Origin: Candidatus Nomurabacteria bacterium | Lineage (GTDB): Bacteria > Patescibacteriota > Minisyncoccia > Phycocordibacterales > UBA9973 | Direction: 5' to 3' | Assembly: GCA_026395995.1 (NCBI GenBank) | Contig: JAPLXQ010000010.1 | Span: 69,296-133,295 of the forward strand | DNA length: 64,000 nucleotides | Part shown: one piece after another, positions 16,791 to 24,270 of the stretch | Position numbering within the stretch: position 1 is the stretch's first letter | Layout: each line of letters begins with the position of its first letter | Position numbers and translations under genes: made by a program | The notes under the pieces: generated by a model | Seen by the model: only the letters and a program-made list of their open reading frames with translations | Database searches by the model: none | Told to the model about the DNA's origin: nothing

Positions 16791-18218
16791 ATGAATGGAA
16801 AATTAATTATCGCAAGGCATGAAGAATCAGAATGGAATAAACTCGGCAAATGGACTGGTTCTGTGAATATTGGTTTAACTGGTGAAGGCTTTAATCAGTC
16901 CAGAAAAATGGGTGAACTCATTCGTGGTATTCCTATGGATCAAGCTTTTGCTTCAGCGCAAATCAGATCACTTGAAACACTTCTTTGTATGGAGGACGAC
17001 ATTTGTATTGATTTACCGATTACTCGATCCGATGCTTTAAATGAAAGAGATTATGGTGATTATACTGGAAAAAATAAATGGGAAATGAAAGATATTCTAG
17101 GCGAAGAAGAGTTTGATAAGCTTCGTCGTGATTGGGATTATTCTGTGCCAAATGGTGAGACTTTGAAAATGGTTTATGAAAGAATTGTGCCATACTACCT
17201 AAACACTATTTTGCCAATCTTAAAAGAAGGGAAGACCGTGCTTCTCGTCGCTCACGGAAATTCTTTGCGAGCCTTGATGAAATATTTAGAAAATATTTCT
17301 GATGAAAACATCTCTCATTTAGAAATGCTTTTTGATACTGTAGTAATTTATGAAATAAATGAAGAAGGAAAAATGGTTAGTAAGGAAGAGAGACATTTGC
17401 CAGCCATAAAAAATGATACAAAAAAGGTTGCACAAATTGTCGCAACGATTGGAATAAATTCTGGAAATAGAGAAACTCTTTTAGAATTGTTTAAAAATGG
17501 TATGAATATTGCTCGTTTGAATTTTTCTTGGTCTAGCCTAGATTGGCATGCAGAAAAAATAGCTTTAATTAAAGCTTCAGCCAAAGAGGCTGGAAAAAAT
17601 ATTTTGATTATTCAGGATTTACCAGGACCTAGAATTCAAGAAGAACATGGGCATACATATGACAAGACTACGACTTTCGATATGACAGAGCAAGATAAAA
17701 ATTTTGTGAAATTTGGTGTCGAGCAAGAGGTAGACTACACAGCACTTTCATTTGTCGGTAGTAAAAAAGAAATATTAGAATGTCGTGAACTTATAAAAAG
17801 TCTTGGTGGTACACAAAAAATAATTGCGAAAGTAGAGAGAAAAATCGCCGTCGATAACCTCGAAGAAATTATTTCTTCGGCTGATGCAGTGATGGTAGCC
17901 AGGGGAGATCTGGGCGATGAATTTCCACTTGAACAAGTTCCATTTATACAAGATAAAATTATTAAAGCTTGTAATAAGGCTGGTAAGCCCGTAATCACTG
18001 CTACACAAATGATGCTGTCGATGACAAATAGTCCGACGCCGACACGTGCTGAAGTAACAGATGTTTACTCTGCAATCTCACAAGGTAGCGATGCAGTAAT
18101 GCTTTCAGAAGAAACAGCCACAGGTAAATATCCAGTCGAAGCTGTGACTATGATGGAGAAAATTATTCTAGAAGCCGAAAGCCATATGACTAGTGATAAA
18201 AAATTAAATCTTTTGTAA
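16791..18218 (+). CDS. fusion of 2,3-BPG-dependent phosphoglycerate mutase (N-terminal) with a minimal pyruvate kinase A-domain (C-terminal)
   Basis: N-terminus: [15 protein letters not shown] and [13 protein letters not shown] (dPGM). C-terminus: [10 protein letters not shown] ... [10 protein letters not shown] ... IIAKVE ... [12 protein letters not shown] ... [20 protein letters not shown] ... [32 protein letters not shown] (pyruvate kinase), but with no B-domain lid and no C-terminal regulatory domain. Confidence 0.75.
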
Positions 18219-18253: not shown

Positions 18254-18298
18254 TTATCCACTTGACTTCTATATACACTCTATATATACTGTGTGTAT

Positions 18299-18571
18299 AT
18301 GTCAGAAACAGTAATAAATTTTAAAACAAGTGCAAAGCTTAAAGCACAAGCGAAAGAGGTCCTCGATGAAATGGGACTCAATTTTTCTATTGCTTTAAAT
18401 GATTATTTAAAAAAAATAATTCTCGAAAAGAGAATTGAATTCACTGTGCCTGAAATCCCAAATGCTCGTTTACGAAAAGCTATCAAAGAATCTAGGGAAG
18501 ATTATAAAAATGGAAAATCTTTTGGACCATTTAAGAATCATGAAGATTTTGAAAAATCATTAATGTCCTAA
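18299..18571 (+). CDS. dinJ: type II antitoxin, DinJ/RelB family
   Basis: MSETVINFKTSAKLKAQAKEVLDEMGLNFSIALNDYLKKII ribbon-helix-helix pattern. Immediately upstream of the toxin. Confidence 0.6.
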   Translation: MSETVINFKTSAKLKAQAKEVLDEMGLNFSIALNDYLKKIILEKRIEFTVPEIPNARLRKAIKESREDYKNGKSFGPFKNHEDFEKSLMS

Positions 18572-18575
18572 ATTT

Positions 18576-18839
18576 ATGCTTAATGCTATTTTCTCTAAAA
18601 ACTTTAAAAAATCTTTCAAAAAGAAAGATAAAATTATTCAAGAAAAAGTAAAAATACGCATTAGACTCTTTAGAGAAGATCCAAATAATTTAATTTTAAA
18701 TAATCATAAACTTTCAGGTGAGTATGAGGGTTGTAGTAGTATAAATATAACTGGTGATTATAGAGTAGTTTTTGAATTTCTTGATAAAAATACTGTGAAC
18801 TTAGTAGATATCGGAACTCATTCAGAATTGTATGAGTAA
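18576..18839 (+). CDS. yafQ: type II toxin, YafQ/RelE family
   Basis: NHKLSGEYEGCSSINITGDYRVVFEF ... VDIGTHSELY matches the YafQ/RelE mRNA-interferase core. Confidence 0.6.
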   Translation: MLNAIFSKNFKKSFKKKDKIIQEKVKIRIRLFREDPNNLILNNHKLSGEYEGCSSINITGDYRVVFEFLDKNTVNLVDIGTHSELYE

Positions 18840-18868: not shown

Positions 18869-20122
18869 ATGACAAAAATAAAAAAAGTTACGGGGAGGGA
18901 AATAATAGATTCACGGGGGAATCCGACTGTCGAAGTCGAGTGTGAACTTGAGAGTGGGGCAGTGGCTGTGGCGGGTGTGCCGTCTGGGGCGAGTACAGGA
19001 ATACATGAAGCTTTGGAATTGCGAGATGCAGATAAGGCTAGGTACAACGGCCTCGGAGTTTTGAATGCAGTAAATAATGTAAACACAATAATCAATGAAA
19101 ATATTTCTGGAAAAGAATTTGATCAGAAATCTTTAGATGAGGCATTGATAAATTTAGATGGAACAAAAAATAAATCCAAACTCGGAGCGAATGCAATACT
19201 CGGTGTGTCGCTCGCTTTTGCTCGTGCAGTCGCAAATGAAAAGAAAATAAATTTATATGAATATTTAGGGAGCTTAGTAGGGAATACAGAATATGCTTTA
19301 CCCGAGCCGATGTTTAATGTTATCAATGGTGGTAAACATGCCGACAGTGGACTCGACATTCAAGAATTTATGATTATCCCTGTCGGTATAAAAACTTTTA
19401 AAGAAAAAGTCCGTGTAGTTTCAGAAGTGATTTCAGCTTTGAAAAAAGTTTTAGTGGAAAAAGGATTTGGTGTCGGAGTAGGGGATGAAGGTGGCTTTGC
19501 ACCAAAACTCGCTTCCAATGAAGAAGCTTTTGATATTTTAATTATGGCGATACAAAATGCTGGTTATACTACAGAGCAAATAAAGATCGGTATTGATGCT
19601 GCAGCATCTAGCTTCTTCTTCGAGGGAATGTATAAATTAAAAATAGCAGGGGAGGAGAAAAGTTTTAATACCGATGAAATGATAGCTTGGTATGAAAAGC
19701 TCGTATCTACATACCCGATAATTTCTATCGAAGATGGACTCGACGAAGAAGACTGGGCGGGATTTGTATCATTAAATAAAAAACTCGGAGACAAGATAAA
19801 AATAATAGGGGATGACCTTCTTGTGACGAATATAGAAAAAATCCAAAAAGCTATTTCAGAAAATGCTGTGAATTCTGTTTTGATAAAATTGAATCAAATC
19901 GGAACTTTGTCTGAGACAATCGACGCAATACAAATGACTAAAAAACAAAATTGGAACGCTATCGTTTCGCACCGTTCAGGGGAGACAAATGATACATTTA
20001 TCGCCGACCTTGCCGTAGGACTATCATGTGGTTACATAAAATCTGGCTCACTAACCCGCGAAGAAAGAGTCTGTAAATATAATCGTTTGATGGAGATAGA
20101 AGAGAATTTACTATCTAAATAA
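18869..20122 (+). CDS. eno: enolase
   Basis: MTKIKKVTGREIIDSRGNPTVEVE N-terminus and SHRSGETNDTFIADLAVG active-site motif. Confidence 0.9.
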   Translation: MTKIKKVTGREIIDSRGNPTVEVECELESGAVAVAGVPSGASTGIHEALELRDADKARYNGLGVLNAVNNVNTIINENISGKEFDQKSLDEALINLDGTKNKSKLGANAILGVSLAFARAVANEKKINLYEYLGSLVGNTEYALPEPMFNVINGGKHADSGLDIQEFMIIPVGIKTFKEKVRVVSEVISALKKVLVEKGFGVGVGDEGGFAPKLASNEEAFDILIMAIQNAGYTTEQIKIGIDAAASSFFFEGMYKLKIAGEEKSFNTDEMIAWYEKLVSTYPIISIEDGLDEEDWAGFVSLNKKLGDKIKIIGDDLLVTNIEKIQKAISENAVNSVLIKLNQIGTLSETIDAIQMTKKQNWNAIVSHRSGETNDTFIADLAVGLSCGYIKSGSLTREERVCKYNRLMEIEENLLSK

Positions 20123-20128
20123 AAATTG

Positions 20129-20215
20129 CGGAGGATGTGAGATTCGAACTCACGGACCCTTTTACAGGTCGGCGGTTTAGTAAACCGCTAGTTTAAACCA
20201 CTCACTCAATCCTCC
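20129..20215 (-). tRNA. type II (long variable arm) Ser-like tRNA with anticodon loop UUACUAA (anticodon ACU, i.e. A34)
   Basis: Acceptor GGAGGAT/ATCCTCC, D-loop with GG, anticodon stem GCGGU/ACCGC, long variable arm, T-arm GTGAG-TTCGAAT-CTCAC, discriminator G. Same architecture as the tRNA-Ser(GCU) copies but G34 to A. Confidence 0.55.
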
Positions 20216-20265
20216 AAGATTGTATTGCTATTGTAATTTATTTTGTAATTTTATACAATAGAAGT

Positions 20266-21303
20266 ATGGTAGAGACGTTAATATTAAATAGGATAAAATT
20301 TAATAAAAAAGGAATTCAAAAAAAGCTTATTTTGCAAGCTAAAAAGTCTTTAAATTTAACATGGTCTGAATTTGCTAAAGAATTAGGTGTAAGTACTAGA
20401 ACACTTACAAATTGGAGTTGTGAAAAGTTAAATATGTCTTTTGTCTCTGCTGAAAGAATTTCAAAATTAACAGATCTTAAAATTCCTAAAGGCTATTTAG
20501 TTATAAAATGGGATGATCATTTAAGAAAGATTAGTGCATCTGGTGGAAAGAGTAGTTTCAAAAAACATGGAAGAGTTGGTGGTGATGAAATATATAGAAA
20601 AAATAAATGGAAAGAATGGTGGACTAAAAATGGAAAGTATCAAAAAGCTCCTAGTGGTTATAATTCATTGTTAAATATAAAAAAACCAAAACATAATAAA
20701 TTGCTTGCTGAATATGTCGGTATTATGCTAGGTGATGGTGGAATAGCAAAATATTCTACGACAATTACTCTTTCAAATGAAGAAATAAATTATGTTAATT
20801 ATATATCAAGTTTGATAAATAAATTATTCGGTTTGACCCCAAAAGTTTATAAAAAGAAAAACGCTAATGCTGTCGATATAGTAGTTCAAAGAAAAGCTTT
20901 GGTAGATTTTTGCCAAAGTATTGGACTTGTTCAGGGAAATAAAGTTAAACATCAAGTAGATATTCCAAGCTGGGTCAAAGAGAATAAAAGTTTTTCGATA
21001 GAATGTGTTAGGGGATTAATAGATACTGATGGGTGCTTTTACACTAATTCGTATTATGTGAATGGTAAAAAATATTTTTATTTTAAAATTGCTTTTAAAA
21101 ACAGTTCTTTGCCGTTAATTAAATCAGTGGCAGAGATTTTAGCTAGTTTAGGAGTAAAAGTGAGAATAAGTAGAAATTTAAAAGACGTGCGAATTGAAGA
21201 AAAAGAATCAGTTTTAAAATATATAAAGGAAATAGGGACATATAATGATAAACATTTACAAAAAATAATAAAATGGAAAAATAGCAAAAATATGTTAGAG
21301 TAG
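20266..21303 (+). CDS. free-standing LAGLIDADG-family homing-endonuclease-like protein with an N-terminal HTH domain
   Basis: Two LAGLIDADG-type motifs (VGIMLGDGG and RGLIDTDGCF) and an N-terminal HTH (SEFAKELGVSTRTLTNW). Sits between two tRNA genes. Confidence 0.6.
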   Translation: MVETLILNRIKFNKKGIQKKLILQAKKSLNLTWSEFAKELGVSTRTLTNWSCEKLNMSFVSAERISKLTDLKIPKGYLVIKWDDHLRKISASGGKSSFKKHGRVGGDEIYRKNKWKEWWTKNGKYQKAPSGYNSLLNIKKPKHNKLLAEYVGIMLGDGGIAKYSTTITLSNEEINYVNYISSLINKLFGLTPKVYKKKNANAVDIVVQRKALVDFCQSIGLVQGNKVKHQVDIPSWVKENKSFSIECVRGLIDTDGCFYTNSYYVNGKKYFYFKIAFKNSSLPLIKSVAEILASLGVKVRISRNLKDVRIEEKESVLKYIKEIGTYNDKHLQKIIKWKNSKNMLE

Positions 21304-21313
21304 TTGGGTCAAA

Positions 21314-21402
21314 GGAACCGTGTCTGAGCGGTCTAAGGTACCTCTTTGCTAAAGAGGCAGGGGCTTTAAAACCCCTCGCGAGTTCGAATCTCGCCGGTTC
21401 CG
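21314..21402 (+). tRNA. tRNA-Ser(GCU), copy 1
   Basis: Acceptor GGAACCG/CGGTTCC, anticodon arm CCTCT-TTGCTAA-AGAGG, long variable arm, T-loop TTCGAAT, discriminator G. Confidence 0.75.
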
Positions 21403-21423
21403 CAACAAATCTAAACCCAAATC

Positions 21424-21447
21424 CGCGGCGACCGCGTTTTTCGCGTG
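21424..21447 (+). terminator. Rho-independent terminator after tRNA-Ser copy 1
   Basis: CGCGGcgaCCGCG followed by TTTTT. Confidence 0.45.
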
Positions 21448-21629
21448 AATTTGGATTTTTTACGGTATCTGATGGACAAAGTTCGAAATTACTTCGAGCA
21501 GAACCCCAATGATTTAAAAAGCTTTAGCTTTTTATTTTGGCGAAATTCGGGCGGGCTTCCATAAATACATACTATCATATTATTCTAAGTTTGAATATCC
21601 TTGTTGTGAATATACACTTATGATATACT

Positions 21630-21851
21630 ATGGGTAAATCAATTAGAACAAAAGAATACGGAGTATTCGTCAAAAGTCTTCGCCAAGCTCGTGAAGAAAT
21701 GGGATTAACACAGGTTGAGGTCGCAAAGAAACTTAAAAGACCACAATCGTACATTTCTAAATGTGAAGCTGGCGAACAAAGGATTGATGTGGTTGAATTA
21801 AATAAGTTTGCGAAACTTTATAAAAAAAACATTGGATACTTTATAAGTTAA
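21630..21851 (+). CDS. XRE-family HTH regulator
   Basis: LTQVEVAKKLKRPQSYISKCEAGEQRIDVVELNKFAKLY matches the Cro/C1-type HTH. Confidence 0.65.
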   Translation: MGKSIRTKEYGVFVKSLRQAREEMGLTQVEVAKKLKRPQSYISKCEAGEQRIDVVELNKFAKLYKKNIGYFIS

Positions 21852-21861
21852 TTATAAAATT

Positions 21862-22512
21862 ATGGAAAACAAAGAAAAACAAAATAATTTGCCTTGGATA
21901 ATTGTTGGTGTAGTTGTAATCGTTTTTATTATTTTTTTGGTAAGTAGTTCTAACAAAGGAAACACGAATCAATCAGGTAATTCTCCAACAAATAGTATAA
22001 CTGGATTTTTTACGCCAGAAAGTGATGCTCAAATAAAATGCAAATCAGTTACTCAAAAAGCCTTCGATAATTGGTCGGGGAAATTATCTAAGCAACTTTA
22101 CGATTCCATAATGATTGGTACCGACACAGGTCAAATAATCAATACTGGCTCAACTGTTGATTACAAATATAATTACAATACTGATGTAAATCTTTGTTTT
22201 ATGGAATATGTTTTTTCATGGAAAGTTAAAAAGGTTAGTTCGGGAAATGAAGGACAGGTTGATATAAAAGTTGTGCAAACACTCTTTTCTGATACCAACG
22301 ACCCTACAACCACAGGAAATACAGCTCTCGCAACTTTAGCTACAGGAACTGGCCCAAGTGGAAGTCAACTAGTACAACTTTGTTCTGTTATGGTGCCAGG
22401 GCATTATGACGACCCAACACAAAAACCAGTAGGCGAATTACTTGCTCCTACACAATGCAAGTCGGAATCAGAGTTTAATTCATTGGTGCTCGAAAGATTT
22501 GGCATTAAGTAG
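21862..22512 (+). CDS. membrane-anchored extracytoplasmic protein (N-terminal TM helix)
   Basis: LPWIIVGVVVIVFIIFLV signal-anchor followed by a Thr/Gly-rich region. Confidence 0.4.
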   Translation: MENKEKQNNLPWIIVGVVVIVFIIFLVSSSNKGNTNQSGNSPTNSITGFFTPESDAQIKCKSVTQKAFDNWSGKLSKQLYDSIMIGTDTGQIINTGSTVDYKYNYNTDVNLCFMEYVFSWKVKKVSSGNEGQVDIKVVQTLFSDTNDPTTTGNTALATLATGTGPSGSQLVQLCSVMVPGHYDDPTQKPVGELLAPTQCKSESEFNSLVLERFGIK

Positions 22513-22520
22513 TAAATTTT

Positions 22521-22925
22521 GTGCAAAAACTTTCAAAAAAATCCTTAATATCATTAGTAGTAATAATTCTTTTGATATTTTTGGGTTTATATTTCTCGCG
22601 AGATTCTATAACCAAACAATGGAAAGAATTTCAATTGAATAAAGAATTCGTTTGCCCAGAAAATCAAACTGCTGAACAAGCTGACGCTTATCGGTATAAG
22701 CAAACTAAATTTTACGTAGATAATTACCCCGATATAACCTTTCAGAATTTTTTAAGTAGGCGTATGCAACTTTTAGTTTCTCATAAATGTTCAGTTACTC
22801 TGCAGAATCTAGCGAATGATAATAATGGTGTATTGCCAGATCAAAATTCTGTTAATGAACTTAAAAATGCACCTTACGGACCAAACAATCTAACTCTAAA
22901 AGAAATGGCGAAAAATTTAAAATAA
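22521..22925 (+). CDS. small membrane-anchored protein
   Basis: N-terminal hydrophobic helix SLISLVVIILLIFLGLYF. Confidence 0.4.
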   Translation: MQKLSKKSLISLVVIILLIFLGLYFSRDSITKQWKEFQLNKEFVCPENQTAEQADAYRYKQTKFYVDNYPDITFQNFLSRRMQLLVSHKCSVTLQNLANDNNGVLPDQNSVNELKNAPYGPNNLTLKEMAKNLK

Positions 22926-22930
22926 TTAAG

Positions 22931-23497
22931 ATGGAAAGCGCAGAACAAGATTGTCATATGTTGGAAGAATATCTAAAGGTATTTCAAGATTTGATGTTGA
23001 CCATTTTACAGCGTCGCGCTCTTTTTAGAGCTTTTGAGGAATCCTTGATTGGTAAAAATATATCTGATGAAAATCCTTTTTTAAAATTTTATGCAGGTGA
23101 TTATAGGCGTTCTCAATTTGCTGATTTAAGAAAATTTTTTGATAATAACAAACGATACCCGACTTATAAGTTTTCTTTTATTACGGAACATTGTTCCGAT
23201 AAAACTATTCTAGATAGCCATAAAGAATTATTAAAAAGTTGGCAAGATAAATTTCAGGACATCGCAAATAAAATTGATTTTCATATTGAACAAGGGTTTG
23301 TGGCTACTCCTGTCTTCAAAAAACAATTTGATGATTTCACTGACGAAGTAAATGAATATATTGATAAGGTCATTGAGGTTTTGGTAAAGGACGGTCATAA
23401 AATAAGTTATCAAATGGGAAGAAAATCAGAATCTGATTTTCTAGTGAATTGGCAAAAAGAATATTTTGATGAGTTTAAGAAGATTGTTTGCGAATAG
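22931..23497 (+). CDS. hypothetical protein
   Basis: 188-aa ORF. No family recognised. Confidence 0.35.
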   Translation: MESAEQDCHMLEEYLKVFQDLMLTILQRRALFRAFEESLIGKNISDENPFLKFYAGDYRRSQFADLRKFFDNNKRYPTYKFSFITEHCSDKTILDSHKELLKSWQDKFQDIANKIDFHIEQGFVATPVFKKQFDDFTDEVNEYIDKVIEVLVKDGHKISYQMGRKSESDFLVNWQKEYFDEFKKIVCE

Positions 23498-23885
23498 GGA
23501 GCAATCCCCGCCGTTTTATAATGTTTCTTCAAAACGGCGTGGATTTGTGCGCGAACGGGTGGGTGGGTCAAGCACATAAAGAAATTTAGGACTCGCCATC
23601 CTTTTTTTTGTTATAATTGTATGGTGAGACATTTTTTTGAATTTATAAGCCCGCCCGAATTTCGCCAAAACAAAAAGAGGAGCAAGCGGAGGATTCCTCC
23701 CCAGACCCCTCCTCCTCCGTTTGCGACATCCGAATTCAGAAAAAAGGAATCAGCCGAAGTTTTGCGGAATCCTTTCCCCAGAAAATTGTTTCCGCAAAAC
23801 TTCGTCCGCATTGTTTCAGATTTCTTTTTCTGGATTTTCTTCGAAAAAAGTTCGAATTTTGTCCAGAATATACCGCAAATGTTTT

Positions 23886-23974
23886 TGGAACCGTGTCTGA
23901 GCGGTCTAACGTACCTCTTTGCTAAAGAGGCAGGGGCTTTAAAACCCCTCGCGAGTTCGAATCTCGCCGGTTCC
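23886..23974 (+). tRNA. tRNA-Ser(GCU), copy 2 (2 mismatches to copy 1)
   Basis: 89 nt, same cloverleaf as 21314..21402. Differs only at taaggt/taacgt in the D-region. Confidence 0.75.
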
Positions 23975-24012
23975 GCTTGTAATAATTTTATACATTTAAC
24001 GGCAATAATAAT

Positions 24013-24270
24013 ATGAACGGTACAAATTGGTCGGAAGTTTTCTTTTTTATTTCTTCAATAGGTTTTATATCTCTATGGGTTTTAACTATAGTATTTTTAT
24101 TTTACTTGATAAAAACTATGCACACTTTTTCTAGAATTATGAACAAATTAGAAAAAGATATAGAGAATATAAGTGAAGAAGCAAAAGATATGATAGACGA
24201 TGTGCGAGACAATATGATTTTCAAATTTTTATTCGGGAAAAAGAAGAAACATCACAAGGTTAAAAAATAG
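24013..24270 (+). CDS. small membrane protein
   Basis: N-terminal TM helix FFFISSIGFISLWVLTIVFLFYLI. Confidence 0.35.
   Translation: MNGTNWSEVFFFISSIGFISLWVLTIVFLFYLIKTMHTFSRIMNKLEKDIENISEEAKDMIDDVRDNMIFKFLFGKKKKHHKVKK

What the first reader, a model, noticed from the sequence alone, without database searches (positions are those of the whole stretch)
20266..21303. Free-standing LAGLIDADG endonuclease with an N-terminal HTH, wedged between two tRNA genes
The ORF has two LAGLIDADG-type motifs (IMLGDGG, GLIDTDGCF) preceded by about 90 aa with an HTH. It is not inside an intron or intein as far as the sequence shows. It lies between a minus-strand Ser-like tRNA and tRNA-Ser(GCU) copy 1, at the edge of the tRNA-bounded islet. 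It may be a domesticated or mobile homing endonuclease targeting a tRNA-Ser gene, or the relic of an intron now excised.
Basis: partly seen in the sequence, partly recalled or inferred. Interest (0 to 1): 0.5.

Follow-up and report, generated by a model that had tools for sequence, protein, structure and literature searches.

The report
Mobile endonuclease gene between tRNA-Ser genes
This is a selfish, free-standing homing-endonuclease gene (a DNA-cutting enzyme with an extra DNA-binding domain) sitting in the short spacer between two serine-tRNA genes of a Parcubacteria-type bacterium; it belongs to a large uncharacterised family, is missing from about 93% of related genomes at the same spot, and shows signs of having moved between genomes.

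Summary
ORF 20266-21303 (+) encodes a 345-aa protein: an Xre-like HTH, a helical Trp/Lys-rich connector, and a single-chain two-motif LAGLIDADG core. Both catalytic Asp residues (D157, D255) are invariant in 30 homologues. The ORF lies between tRNA-Ser(ACU) (-) and tRNA-Ser(GCU) (+).

The family is large (721 clusters at 50% identity; at least 456 species representatives) and, judged by record names, Parcubacteria-type. In 73 of 77 evaluable loci the gene ends within -57 to +63 bp of a same-strand tRNA-Ser gene.

It is not a fixed host gene. Of 106 evaluable metagenomic loci chosen only by their tRNA-Ser(GCU) sequence, 7 carry it. The other 99 lack it, and 82 of those have the ACU tRNA within 900 nt upstream (spacers mostly 62-130 bp). 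No remnants were found.

The last 11 codons and the stop of the ORF match tRNA-Ser(GCU) promoter DNA that is also present in empty sites. Three genomes share an identical tRNA-Ser(ACU) and an 88-92% identical endonuclease gene, but their outer flanks match different endonuclease-free lineages.

Verdict: a mobile, intronless homing endonuclease using the divergent tRNA promoter spacer as a harmless site. It is a new variant of a known kind, of moderate interest. Cleavage itself is untested.

The parts
20128..20215 (-). tRNA-Ser(ACU), class II tRNA with A34. It is the left neighbour and diverges from the endonuclease gene. In relatives it travels together with the endonuclease gene.
   Evidence: ARAGORN; Rfam tRNA 52 bits, E=1.9e-9. 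An identical ACU tRNA is shared by the occupied loci L002, L005 and L096 and is absent from all empty loci.
20231..20259 (+). The endonuclease gene's own promoter-like site, TTGTAA-17-TACAAT. It ends 6 nt before the ATG, which suggests a leaderless mRNA (inferred).
   Evidence: Consensus scan. A TAnnAT-type hexamer ending 6 nt before the ATG is seen in most occupied loci of this clade.
20240..21269 (+). Approximate extent of the inserted element: own promoter plus the ORF up to codon 334. The right edge is good to about +/-3 nt, the left edge to about +/-10 nt.
   Evidence: Empty-site loci align to the window only from 21267-21272 onward. The left edge is placed by comparing occupied and empty spacers.
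20266..21303 (+). HTH-LAGLIDADG endonuclease ORF, 345 aa.
20314..20472 (+). N-terminal Xre-like helix-turn-helix domain (residues 17-69).
   Evidence: Pfam HTH_3, sub-threshold; four helices at pLDDT 90 or above; conserved R45, W50 and E53.
20509..20634 (+). Two long helices (residues 82-123) with the invariant basic/aromatic block YRKxKWxEWW (R111, W115, W118, W119). A low-confidence linker follows (residues 124-144). Probably a second DNA-contacting or spacer module (inferred).
   Evidence: Alignment A1; model.
20698..21282 (+). Single-chain two-domain LAGLIDADG core (residues 145-339). Motif 1 (LAEYVGIMLGDGG) is at 20704-20742, with the D157 codon at 20734-20736. Motif 2 (RGLIDTDGC) is at 21010-21036, with the D255 codon at 21028-21030.
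   Evidence: Pfam. Foldseek best match is I-Tsp061I (2dch), E=3.8e-12, followed by intein endonucleases, I-AniI and I-DmoI. D157 and D255 are invariant in 30 sequences.
21270..21303 (+). The ORF tail (KWKNSKNMLE plus stop) matches tRNA-Ser(GCU) promoter DNA found in empty sites. It holds a -35-like TGGAAA at 21274-21279 and an extended -10, TGTTAGAGT, at 21293-21301. The stop TAG is at 21301-21303.
   Evidence: The same block, ATGGAAAAAtAGCa..AATATGyTAGAGTAA, is found in 41 empty spacers. The blastn boundary agrees.
21314..21403 (+). tRNA-Ser(GCU) copy 1, the right neighbour. A same-strand tRNA-Ser follows the gene in nearly the whole family.
   Evidence: synteny in 73 of 77 evaluable loci.

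Best explanation
This is a free-standing ('intronless') LAGLIDADG homing-endonuclease gene, about 1.03 kb with its own promoter. It is inserted in the short spacer between the divergently transcribed tRNA-Ser(ACU) and tRNA-Ser(GCU) genes.

Shown:
- The protein has a complete single-chain LAGLIDADG core, with both metal-binding Asp residues invariant across the family. It also has an N-terminal HTH and a Trp/Lys-rich helical module.
- The gene is missing from about 93% of related loci at the same site. Most of those have a short, clean spacer between the two tRNA genes.
- The insertion keeps the whole tRNA-Ser(GCU) promoter. The ORF runs into that promoter and stops in its -10 box.
- A cassette of tRNA-Ser(ACU) plus the endonuclease gene is shared by genomes whose other flanks match different lineages that lack the endonuclease gene.

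Inferred:
- The enzyme cuts the empty spacer. The likely site is the conserved block GAGTATAGCAGAAAAA|ATGGAAAAATAGC that spans the insertion point. The HTH and connector probably lengthen the recognised site.
- The break is repaired from an occupied allele. The two conserved tRNA genes serve as homology arms, so the neighbouring tRNA-Ser(ACU) is co-converted.
- The site is harmless to the host because it lies between two back-to-back promoters.
- The mRNA is probably leaderless.
- Donor DNA probably arrives by DNA uptake.
For: - Architecture and catalytic residues.
- Family size and constant length.
- Fixed position next to tRNA-Ser: 73 of 77 evaluable loci.
- Unbiased occupancy test: 7 occupied against 99 without the gene, no remnants (best hmmsearch E=0.004).
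- Insertion edge and promoter-matching ORF tail.
- Identical tRNA-Ser(GCU) in occupied and empty alleles, so the discriminating target must include the spacer.
- Mosaic cassette:
  - L002, L005 and L096 share an identical ACU tRNA and an 88-92% identical endonuclease gene.
  - Their GCU tRNAs are only 86-88% identical between L005 and L002/L096.
  - The outer left flanks of L002 and L005 cannot be aligned.
  - The right flank of L002 matches the empty locus L157 (89% over 1550 nt).
  - The left flank of L005 matches the empty locus L148 (79% over 1510 nt).
- Lower G+C than the neighbours: 27.5% against 36-37%.
- Own promoter-like site 6 nt before the ATG.
Against: - No cleavage data exist, and the target site is inferred only from the insertion point.
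- No occupied/empty pair with near-identical (over 95%) flanks on both sides was found. The gain or loss events seen are therefore not very recent.
- Across the family, upstream context tracks the protein tree. Much of the inheritance is therefore vertical.
- No pseudogene was seen among about 87 occupied loci. That could also reflect selection for a host-useful function.
- The peripheral catalytic Lys positions of I-DmoI are not clearly conserved (one search compared with PMC3384342).
- The mosaic could in principle come from ordinary homologous recombination between tRNA genes, without any endonuclease action.
- The occupancy test covered only the window's own clade.
Confidence: 0.78

Rival explanations
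1. Domesticated host factor. On this reading the HTH-LAGLIDADG protein is kept because it does something for the cell at the tRNA-Ser locus, such as regulating the divergent tRNA-Ser promoters or making a programmed break. It would not be kept as a selfish element.
For: - The gene is linked to tRNA-Ser throughout a deep radiation (36-60% identity).
- Every copy seen is intact and of constant length.
- Upstream context tracks the protein tree.
- The C-terminal codons overlap the tRNA promoter.
Against: - Only 7 of 106 evaluable related loci carry it, and 99 do well without it.
- The cassette shows horizontal, mosaic inheritance.
- Both catalytic Asp residues are invariant. The known domesticated regulator WhiA has lost them (PMC3384342).
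Confidence: 0.1
2. A dead passenger. On this reading this copy, or the clade's copies, no longer cleave DNA. They persist and move only by general recombination between the conserved tRNA genes on either side.
For: - There is no direct evidence of activity.
- The recombination tract ends coincide with the tRNA genes. tRNA genes would favour ordinary recombination in any case.
Against: - The ORF is intact, and all family-invariant residues listed for alignment A1 are by definition present in it, including D157, D255, K226 and N327.
- A 94% identical copy exists elsewhere.
- No frameshifted or truncated relics appear among the occupied loci, and none in the empty ones.
- Purifying selection over the full length across 721 clusters is hard to explain without a function.
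Confidence: 0.08
3. A relic of a group I intron or an intein that once interrupted a tRNA or another gene.
For: Most characterised LAGLIDADG enzymes are intron- or intein-encoded. The closest structures are an archaeal intron enzyme and intein enzymes. Patescibacteria carry tRNA and rRNA introns (PMC13011429, PMC11270868).
Against: - Rfam finds no intron match in 19900-24100 even at E<=1.
- Both flanking tRNAs are complete.
- Empty alleles show an intergenic spacer, not an interrupted gene.
- The element has its own promoter-like site and start codon.
Confidence: 0.02
4. It is part of the adjacent tRNA-bounded islet (21404-23886), that is, one module of a larger integrative element.
For: It lies directly next to an islet that is bounded by two 99% identical tRNA-Ser(GCU) copies and contains a 31-nt inverted repeat.
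Against: - A related islet follows the tRNA in L194, which lacks the endonuclease gene.
- No other fetched occupied locus gave a blastn match to the islet region.
Confidence: 0.02

Closest known systems
Single-chain (two-motif) LAGLIDADG homing endonucleases such as I-Tsp061I, I-DmoI and I-AniI, and the intein enzymes PI-PfuI and the TliVMA intein
   Same: The fold is the same, a pseudo-dimeric core with two LAGLIDADG helices. One acidic residue sits at the end of each motif. The size of the core (about 195 aa) is similar. Foldseek E-values run from 3.8e-12 to about 1e-7, and PDB sequence hits agree.
   Different: Those enzymes are encoded in group I introns or inteins inside conserved genes. 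This one is free-standing in an intergenic promoter spacer. It also carries about 145 extra N-terminal residues (HTH plus a helical connector). Sequence identity to any solved structure is at most 22%.
Free-standing phage homing endonucleases that home without an intron, with co-conversion of flanks. Examples are T4 MobE (PMC2790892) and SegB in the T4 tRNA gene cluster (SegB from my own recall, not read here)
   Same: The gene is intergenic and stand-alone. It is polymorphic for presence or absence between relatives. Neighbouring markers travel with it (here, tRNA-Ser(ACU)). It sits close to tRNA genes.
   Different: The catalytic families differ (HNH and GIY-YIG against LAGLIDADG). The host is a cellular Parcubacteria chromosome, not a phage. 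No relative with the N-terminal domain was found in viral contigs.
WhiA/DUF199
   Same: A LAGLIDADG scaffold is fused to an HTH domain in a bacterial chromosome.
   Different: WhiA has a C-terminal HTH, has lost both catalytic acidic residues and is a universal regulator in its lineages (PMC3384342). Here the HTH is N-terminal, both Asp residues are invariant and the gene is sporadic.
LAGLIDADG genes in the rRNA insertion sequences and introns of CPR bacteria (PMC11270868)
   Same: The host group and the enzyme superfamily are the same. Both use a highly conserved RNA-gene neighbourhood.
   Different: Those lie inside rRNA genes. That paper does not contain the terms tRNA, free-standing or HTH. 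The tRNA-intron survey of Patescibacteria reports HNH, not LAGLIDADG, enzymes in tRNA introns.

Membership tests
LAGLIDADG homing endonuclease (single-chain) | [quoted passage not shown] | tested here: met
   Pfam LAGLIDADG_3 with two stretches, E=6.7e-14. The model core has pLDDT above 90, and Foldseek hits I-Tsp061I, I-AniI and I-DmoI.
LAGLIDADG homing endonuclease (single-chain) | A metal-binding acidic residue at the C-terminal end of each LAGLIDADG helix | tested here: met
   D157 (LGDGG) and D255 (DTDG) are invariant in 30 diverse homologues.
LAGLIDADG homing endonuclease (single-chain) | Conserved basic residues beside the active site (K43 and K130 of I-DmoI) | tested here: inconclusive
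   The positions equivalent by sequence vary (S/N/K and T/K). Other invariant Lys or Asn residues exist (K226, K274, N327, K329). No structural superposition at residue level was possible.
LAGLIDADG homing endonuclease (single-chain) | Site-specific double-strand cleavage of a long (about 20 bp) target | not testable with these tools
   This needs biochemistry. The candidate target is the empty spacer consensus.
Mobile homing element | Presence/absence polymorphism at one fixed genomic site, with clean empty alleles | tested here: met
   7 occupied against 99 without the gene among loci chosen by tRNA sequence only. 82 of the 99 have the ACU tRNA within 900 nt upstream. No remnants were found.
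Mobile homing element | Horizontal spread with co-conversion of flanking DNA | tested here: met
   The mosaic cassette [tRNA-Ser(ACU)+endonuclease gene] occurs in L002, L005 and L096 with discordant outer flanks. That the endonuclease caused the transfer is inferred.
Intron- or intein-encoded homing endonuclease | The ORF lies inside a self-splicing intron or in frame within an intein | tested here: not met
   No Rfam intron match. The location is intergenic, with the gene's own promoter-like site and start codon.
WhiA/DUF199 | LAGLIDADG fold without catalytic acids, C-terminal HTH, universal single-copy regulator | tested here: not met
   The catalytic Asp residues are retained, the HTH is N-terminal and no WhiA family hit appears. 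The distribution is sporadic.
   Only residues 24-50 match HTH_3, weakly. Residues 145-339 form a full two-motif nuclease core.

The most novel reading that the evidence does not exclude
The protein may be bifunctional. Besides homing, its HTH and connector would bind the back-to-back tRNA-Ser promoters and tune its own transcription and that of the two AGY-decoding tRNA-Ser genes. This would resemble I-TevI autorepression, but acting on host tRNA genes. Its homing would also drive horizontal exchange of the unusual A34 tRNA-Ser(ACU) gene among Parcubacteria. On this reading the element shapes the host's decoding apparatus and is partly mutualistic. That would explain why every copy seen is intact and why the family has stayed beside tRNA-Ser genes through a deep radiation.
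Probability: 0.12. Interest if true: 0.65.

Novelty: new variant of a known kind. Interest (0 to 1): 0.45.

Why it matters
- It defines a large, uncharacterised family of bacterial LAGLIDADG endonucleases (721 clusters at 50% identity) with an unusual domain layout (N-terminal HTH) and an unusual niche. The niche is the spacer between tRNA genes, where the insertion leaves the tRNA-Ser(GCU) promoter intact, instead of an intron or intein.
- It offers naturally diverse enzymes with easily predicted targets (the empty spacers). That is useful for meganuclease engineering and for studying how an added HTH extends LAGLIDADG specificity.
- It gives sequence evidence for gene-conversion-type DNA exchange between Parcubacteria genomes. 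These are uncultured episymbionts whose recombination biology is barely known.
- It shows that conserved tRNA genes can serve as homology arms, so that neighbouring genes (here an A34 tRNA-Ser) are carried between lineages.
- For annotation, the last 11 codons of such ORFs match tRNA promoter DNA. Some 'longer' homologues simply read into the tRNA gene.

Tried and rejected
1. Domestication. This was my first idea after seeing near-universal linkage to tRNA-Ser and invariant residues. I rejected it after the tRNA-anchored metagenome scan showed about 93% of loci without the gene.
2. A target inside the tRNA-Ser(GCU) gene. Rejected as the sole target, because identical tRNA sequences occur in occupied and empty alleles.
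3. A leader-embedded gene that depends on RNase P, with the tRNA made only by read-through. Not needed: the tRNA keeps its own -35/-10 downstream of the insertion.
4. Intron relic. No Rfam hit.
5. Decayed copies in long 'empty' spacers (up to 763 nt). A six-frame hmmsearch with --max found nothing; best E=0.004 at 11.7 bits.
6. A phage vector. Viral contigs hold only distant core-only LAGLIDADG relatives at 24-31% identity.
7. A link to the neighbouring islet. Rejected.
8. PHROGs and NCBIfam gave only weak or partial hits, to intein-containing RFC/RtcB models and to HTH antitoxins.
9. Literature searches found no description of this family.
11. An exact-protein look-up found only a 1.3-kb contig and gave no extra context.

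Full report
**1. Observation**

- The ORF listing gives an ORF at 20266..21303 (+), 345 aa, exactly as reported.
- ARAGORN finds tRNA-Ser(ACU) at 20128-20215 (-), tRNA-Ser(GCU) at 21314-21403 (+) and a second tRNA-Ser(GCU) at 23887-23976 (+).
- Rfam confirms the two GCU copies at gathering threshold. In a focused scan it also confirms the ACU tRNA at 52 bits.
- Pfam LAGLIDADG_3 matches with two stretches (E=6.7e-14). HTH_3 matches residues 24-50 only weakly, at E=1e-3 and below the family cut-off.
- The nearest solved sequences are intein endonucleases and the archaeal intron enzyme I-Tsp061I.

**2. The protein**

- A search of 5.8 billion proteins returned 310 homologues. Almost all are 330-350 aa, 43-60% identical over the full length, and come from Parcubacteria-type CPR bacteria such as Nomurabacteria, Zambryskibacteria and Moranbacteria.
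- A profile search of 1.84 billion representatives found 721 clusters at E<=1e-30, again almost all full length.
- In an alignment of 30 diverse members, both motif blocks are invariant: LAEfvGImLGDGG and RGLiDTDGC. This includes the two acidic residues D157 and D255.
- A basic/aromatic block in the N-terminal half (R111, W115, W118, W119) is also invariant.
- The AlphaFold2 model (mean pLDDT 87.9) has four parts:
  - a four-helix HTH domain (residues 17-69);
  - two long helices (82-123);
  - a low-confidence linker (124-144);
  - a compact two-domain core (145-339).
- Foldseek places the core closest to I-Tsp061I (E=3.8e-12), then intein endonucleases, I-AniI and I-DmoI.
- WhiA, the known LAGLIDADG-plus-HTH regulator, has lost the acidic residues and has a C-terminal HTH (PMC3384342, read). 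This protein is not WhiA-like in those respects.

**3. A striking, family-wide linkage to tRNA-Ser**

I fetched 80 loci.
- The gene ends within -57 to +63 bp of a same-strand tRNA-Ser gene in 73 of 77 evaluable loci, counting the window. The tRNA is GCU in most, UGA in four and ACU in one.
- The exceptions are two larger gaps (+177 and +268), one inverted tRNA (L010) and one tRNA fragment (L007).
- Upstream context differs by clade: tRNA-Ser(ACU)(-) in the window's clade, tRNA-Arg(GCG)(-) in another, tRNA-Ser(UGA)(+) in others, and protein genes elsewhere. It tracks the protein tree.
- The junction sequences show a -10-like hexamer right after or over the stop codon. In many clades a TTGAAA lies within the conserved ...HNPKHLKRY codons.
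- At this stage a domesticated, vertically inherited gene looked plausible.

**4. The decisive test: occupancy at loci chosen without regard to the gene**

- I scanned metagenome contigs with a degenerate pattern for the tRNA-Ser(GCU) of the window's clade. This gave 120 loci.
- Only 7 carry the endonuclease ORF upstream, and 14 are not evaluable.
- 99 evaluable loci lack the ORF. In 82 of them tRNA-Ser(ACU)(-) lies within 900 nt upstream of tRNA-Ser(GCU)(+), with spacers mostly 62-130 nt.
- A maximum-sensitivity profile search of the six-frame translated upstream regions of the empty loci found no remnants.
- The gene is therefore a sporadic insertion, with about 7% occupancy in this clade.

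**5. Anatomy of the insertion**

- Empty-site loci align to the window only from about 21267-21272 onward, through the tRNA.
- The empty spacers carry the block ATGGAAAAAtAGCa..AATATGyTAGAGTAA. In the window the matching sequence forms the last 11 codons and the stop of the ORF (21270-21303). 41 empty spacers and 5 of the 7 occupied loci share it.
- This block reads as the tRNA-Ser(GCU) promoter: a -35-like TGGAAA and an extended -10, TGnTAGAGT. The insertion therefore lies just upstream of the -35 and leaves the tRNA promoter intact. The ORF simply runs on until the TAG or TAA inside the -10 box.
- On the left, the element brings its own promoter-like site: TTGTAA-17-TACAAT at 20231-20259.
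- A TAnnAT hexamer ends exactly 6 nt before the ATG in most occupied loci of the clade. This suggests a leaderless mRNA, which is an inference.
- The empty-site consensus across the insertion point is ...GAGTATAgCAGAAAAA|ATGgAAAAAtAGC.... Its left part is the reverse-strand extended -10 of tRNA-Ser(ACU).
- The element thus sits between two back-to-back promoters, a place where it does little harm.

**6. Evidence for horizontal movement**

- Identical tRNA-Ser(GCU) sequences occur in occupied and empty alleles: L096 with L091, L127 and L186; L002 with L132; L160 with L195. The tRNA gene alone therefore cannot be the discriminating target.
- L002, L005 (=L124) and L096 share an identical tRNA-Ser(ACU) that no empty locus has. 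Their endonuclease genes are 88-92% identical.
- Their GCU tRNAs are only 86-88% identical between L005 and the other two. The outer left flanks of L002 and L005 cannot be aligned.
- The right flank of L002 matches the empty locus L157 at 89% over 1550 nt (GCU tRNA 98%, ACU tRNA only 88%).
- The left flank of L005 matches the empty locus L148 at 79% over 1510 nt (GCU tRNA 97%, ACU tRNA 76%).
- This mosaic is what homing with co-conversion predicts. The tract ends in the two conserved tRNA genes.
- The endonuclease gene is also more AT-rich than its neighbours: 27.5% G+C against 36-37%.
- No relative with the N-terminal domain was found in viral contigs.

**7. Mechanism proposed**

- Shown: the architecture, the invariant catalytic Asp residues, the presence/absence polymorphism, the intact host promoter and the mosaic cassette.
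- Inferred:
  - The enzyme cleaves the empty spacer across the insertion point, and the HTH and connector extend recognition.
  - Repair from an occupied donor copies the gene, with the tRNA genes acting as homology arms.
  - tRNA-adjacent spacers are favoured across the family because tRNA genes offer conserved homology and conserved core promoters.
- Caveats:
  - No activity data exist.
  - No near-identical occupied/empty pair was found.
  - Much of the inheritance looks vertical at the family scale.
  - Occupancy was measured in one clade only.

**8. Rivals**

- Domesticated factor: about 0.10.
- Inactive passenger moved by ordinary recombination: about 0.08.
- Intron or intein relic: about 0.02. 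Rfam finds no intron even at E<=1.
- Module of the neighbouring islet: about 0.02. A related islet follows the tRNA in L194, which lacks the endonuclease gene.

**9. Comparison and novelty**

- Enzyme family membership (single-chain LAGLIDADG) is met on fold, motifs and acidic residues. Cleavage is untestable here.
- It works like the free-standing 'intronless' homing endonucleases of T-even phages (for example MobE, PMC2790892). It differs in three ways: a different catalytic family, a cellular CPR chromosome as host, and an N-terminal HTH.
- The papers on CPR rRNA insertion sequences and on Patescibacteria tRNA introns do not describe it. A further full-text search found nothing on it. Databases merely label members 'LAGLIDADG family homing endonuclease' or 'XRE regulator'.
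- I rate it a new variant of a known kind, interest about 0.45. It is a solid, sizeable and tidy case with useful experimental handles, but the underlying biology (homing) is established.

Noticed in passing
window 20128-20215 (-); also L001-L012, L031, L054, L061 and about 88 of L081-L200: A class II tRNA-Ser with anticodon ACU (A34) is conserved in this clade. It was found in 105 loci, and 103 of them have the anticodon loop UUACUAA. It scores 52 bits against Rfam tRNA and almost always diverges from tRNA-Ser(GCU). A 2026 preprint (10.64898/2026.05.15.725136) states that 15 ANN anticodons are absent across bacteria. A conserved A34 tRNA in the split AGN box would therefore be unusual and deserves its own study: its decoding of AGU, and any risk of misreading AGA if it were deaminated.
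   Followed up: partly
window 21404-23886, bounded by 21314-21403 and 23887-23976: This 2.5-kb islet lies between two 99% identical full-length tRNA-Ser(GCU) copies, and the duplication stops exactly at the tRNA ends. The islet holds an Xre HTH gene (21630-21848), three small ORFs with no informative Pfam match, and a 31-nt inverted repeat (21528-21558 / 23647-23677, 97%). Parts of it recur downstream of the tRNA in L194, a locus without the endonuclease gene, at 91.5%, 81% and 99% identity. It is therefore a separate variable or mobile region.
   Followed up: partly
window 23648-23876: A relatively G+C-rich non-coding stretch just upstream of tRNA copy 2 is 99% identical to the end of L194 and 94% identical (reverse strand) to L199. 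It contains a perfect 15-nt inverted repeat (23755-23769 / 23790-23804). It may be the end of a mobile element or a small structured RNA. Rfam gives only sub-threshold chance hits.
   Followed up: no
L008, L009, L011, L012, L065 (and the proteins that end in ...KVALNGKAAVC): In these homologues the ORF has no stop before the tRNA. It reads 38 nt into tRNA-Ser(GCU) and stops at the TAA formed in the anticodon loop (GCU AA). RNase P cleavage of a co-transcript would leave a non-stop mRNA. Gene callers therefore report artificially extended C-termini.
   Followed up: partly
L051 and L075 (same MAG, CAZSQP01); L057, L078, L080, L048: A distinct clade of the family sits upstream of tRNA-Ser(UGA) instead of GCU. 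One MAG carries two paralogues, one before each isoacceptor. In L062 the gene points at tRNA-Ser(ACU) instead. This suggests target switching among tRNA-Ser promoters.
   Followed up: partly
L010 1150-1250; L007 1290-1330: Two occupied loci are rearranged at the junction. In L010 the tRNA-Ser(GCU) is inverted right after the retained ATGGAAAAA block. In L007 only a T-arm-like fragment of a tRNA remains. These may be scars of faulty break repair.
   Followed up: no
window 16791-18215 (+): A single 475-aa ORF fuses a histidine-phosphatase (phosphoglycerate-mutase-type) domain to the C-terminal part of a pyruvate kinase barrel (Pfam His_Phos_1 E=1.9e-30; PK E=3.3e-75, best stretch profile positions 174-328). 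This is an unusual glycolytic fusion just upstream of enolase.
   Followed up: no
window 18293-18836 (+): A RelB antitoxin / YafQ-ParE-type toxin pair is wedged between the mutase-kinase fusion and enolase.
   Followed up: no
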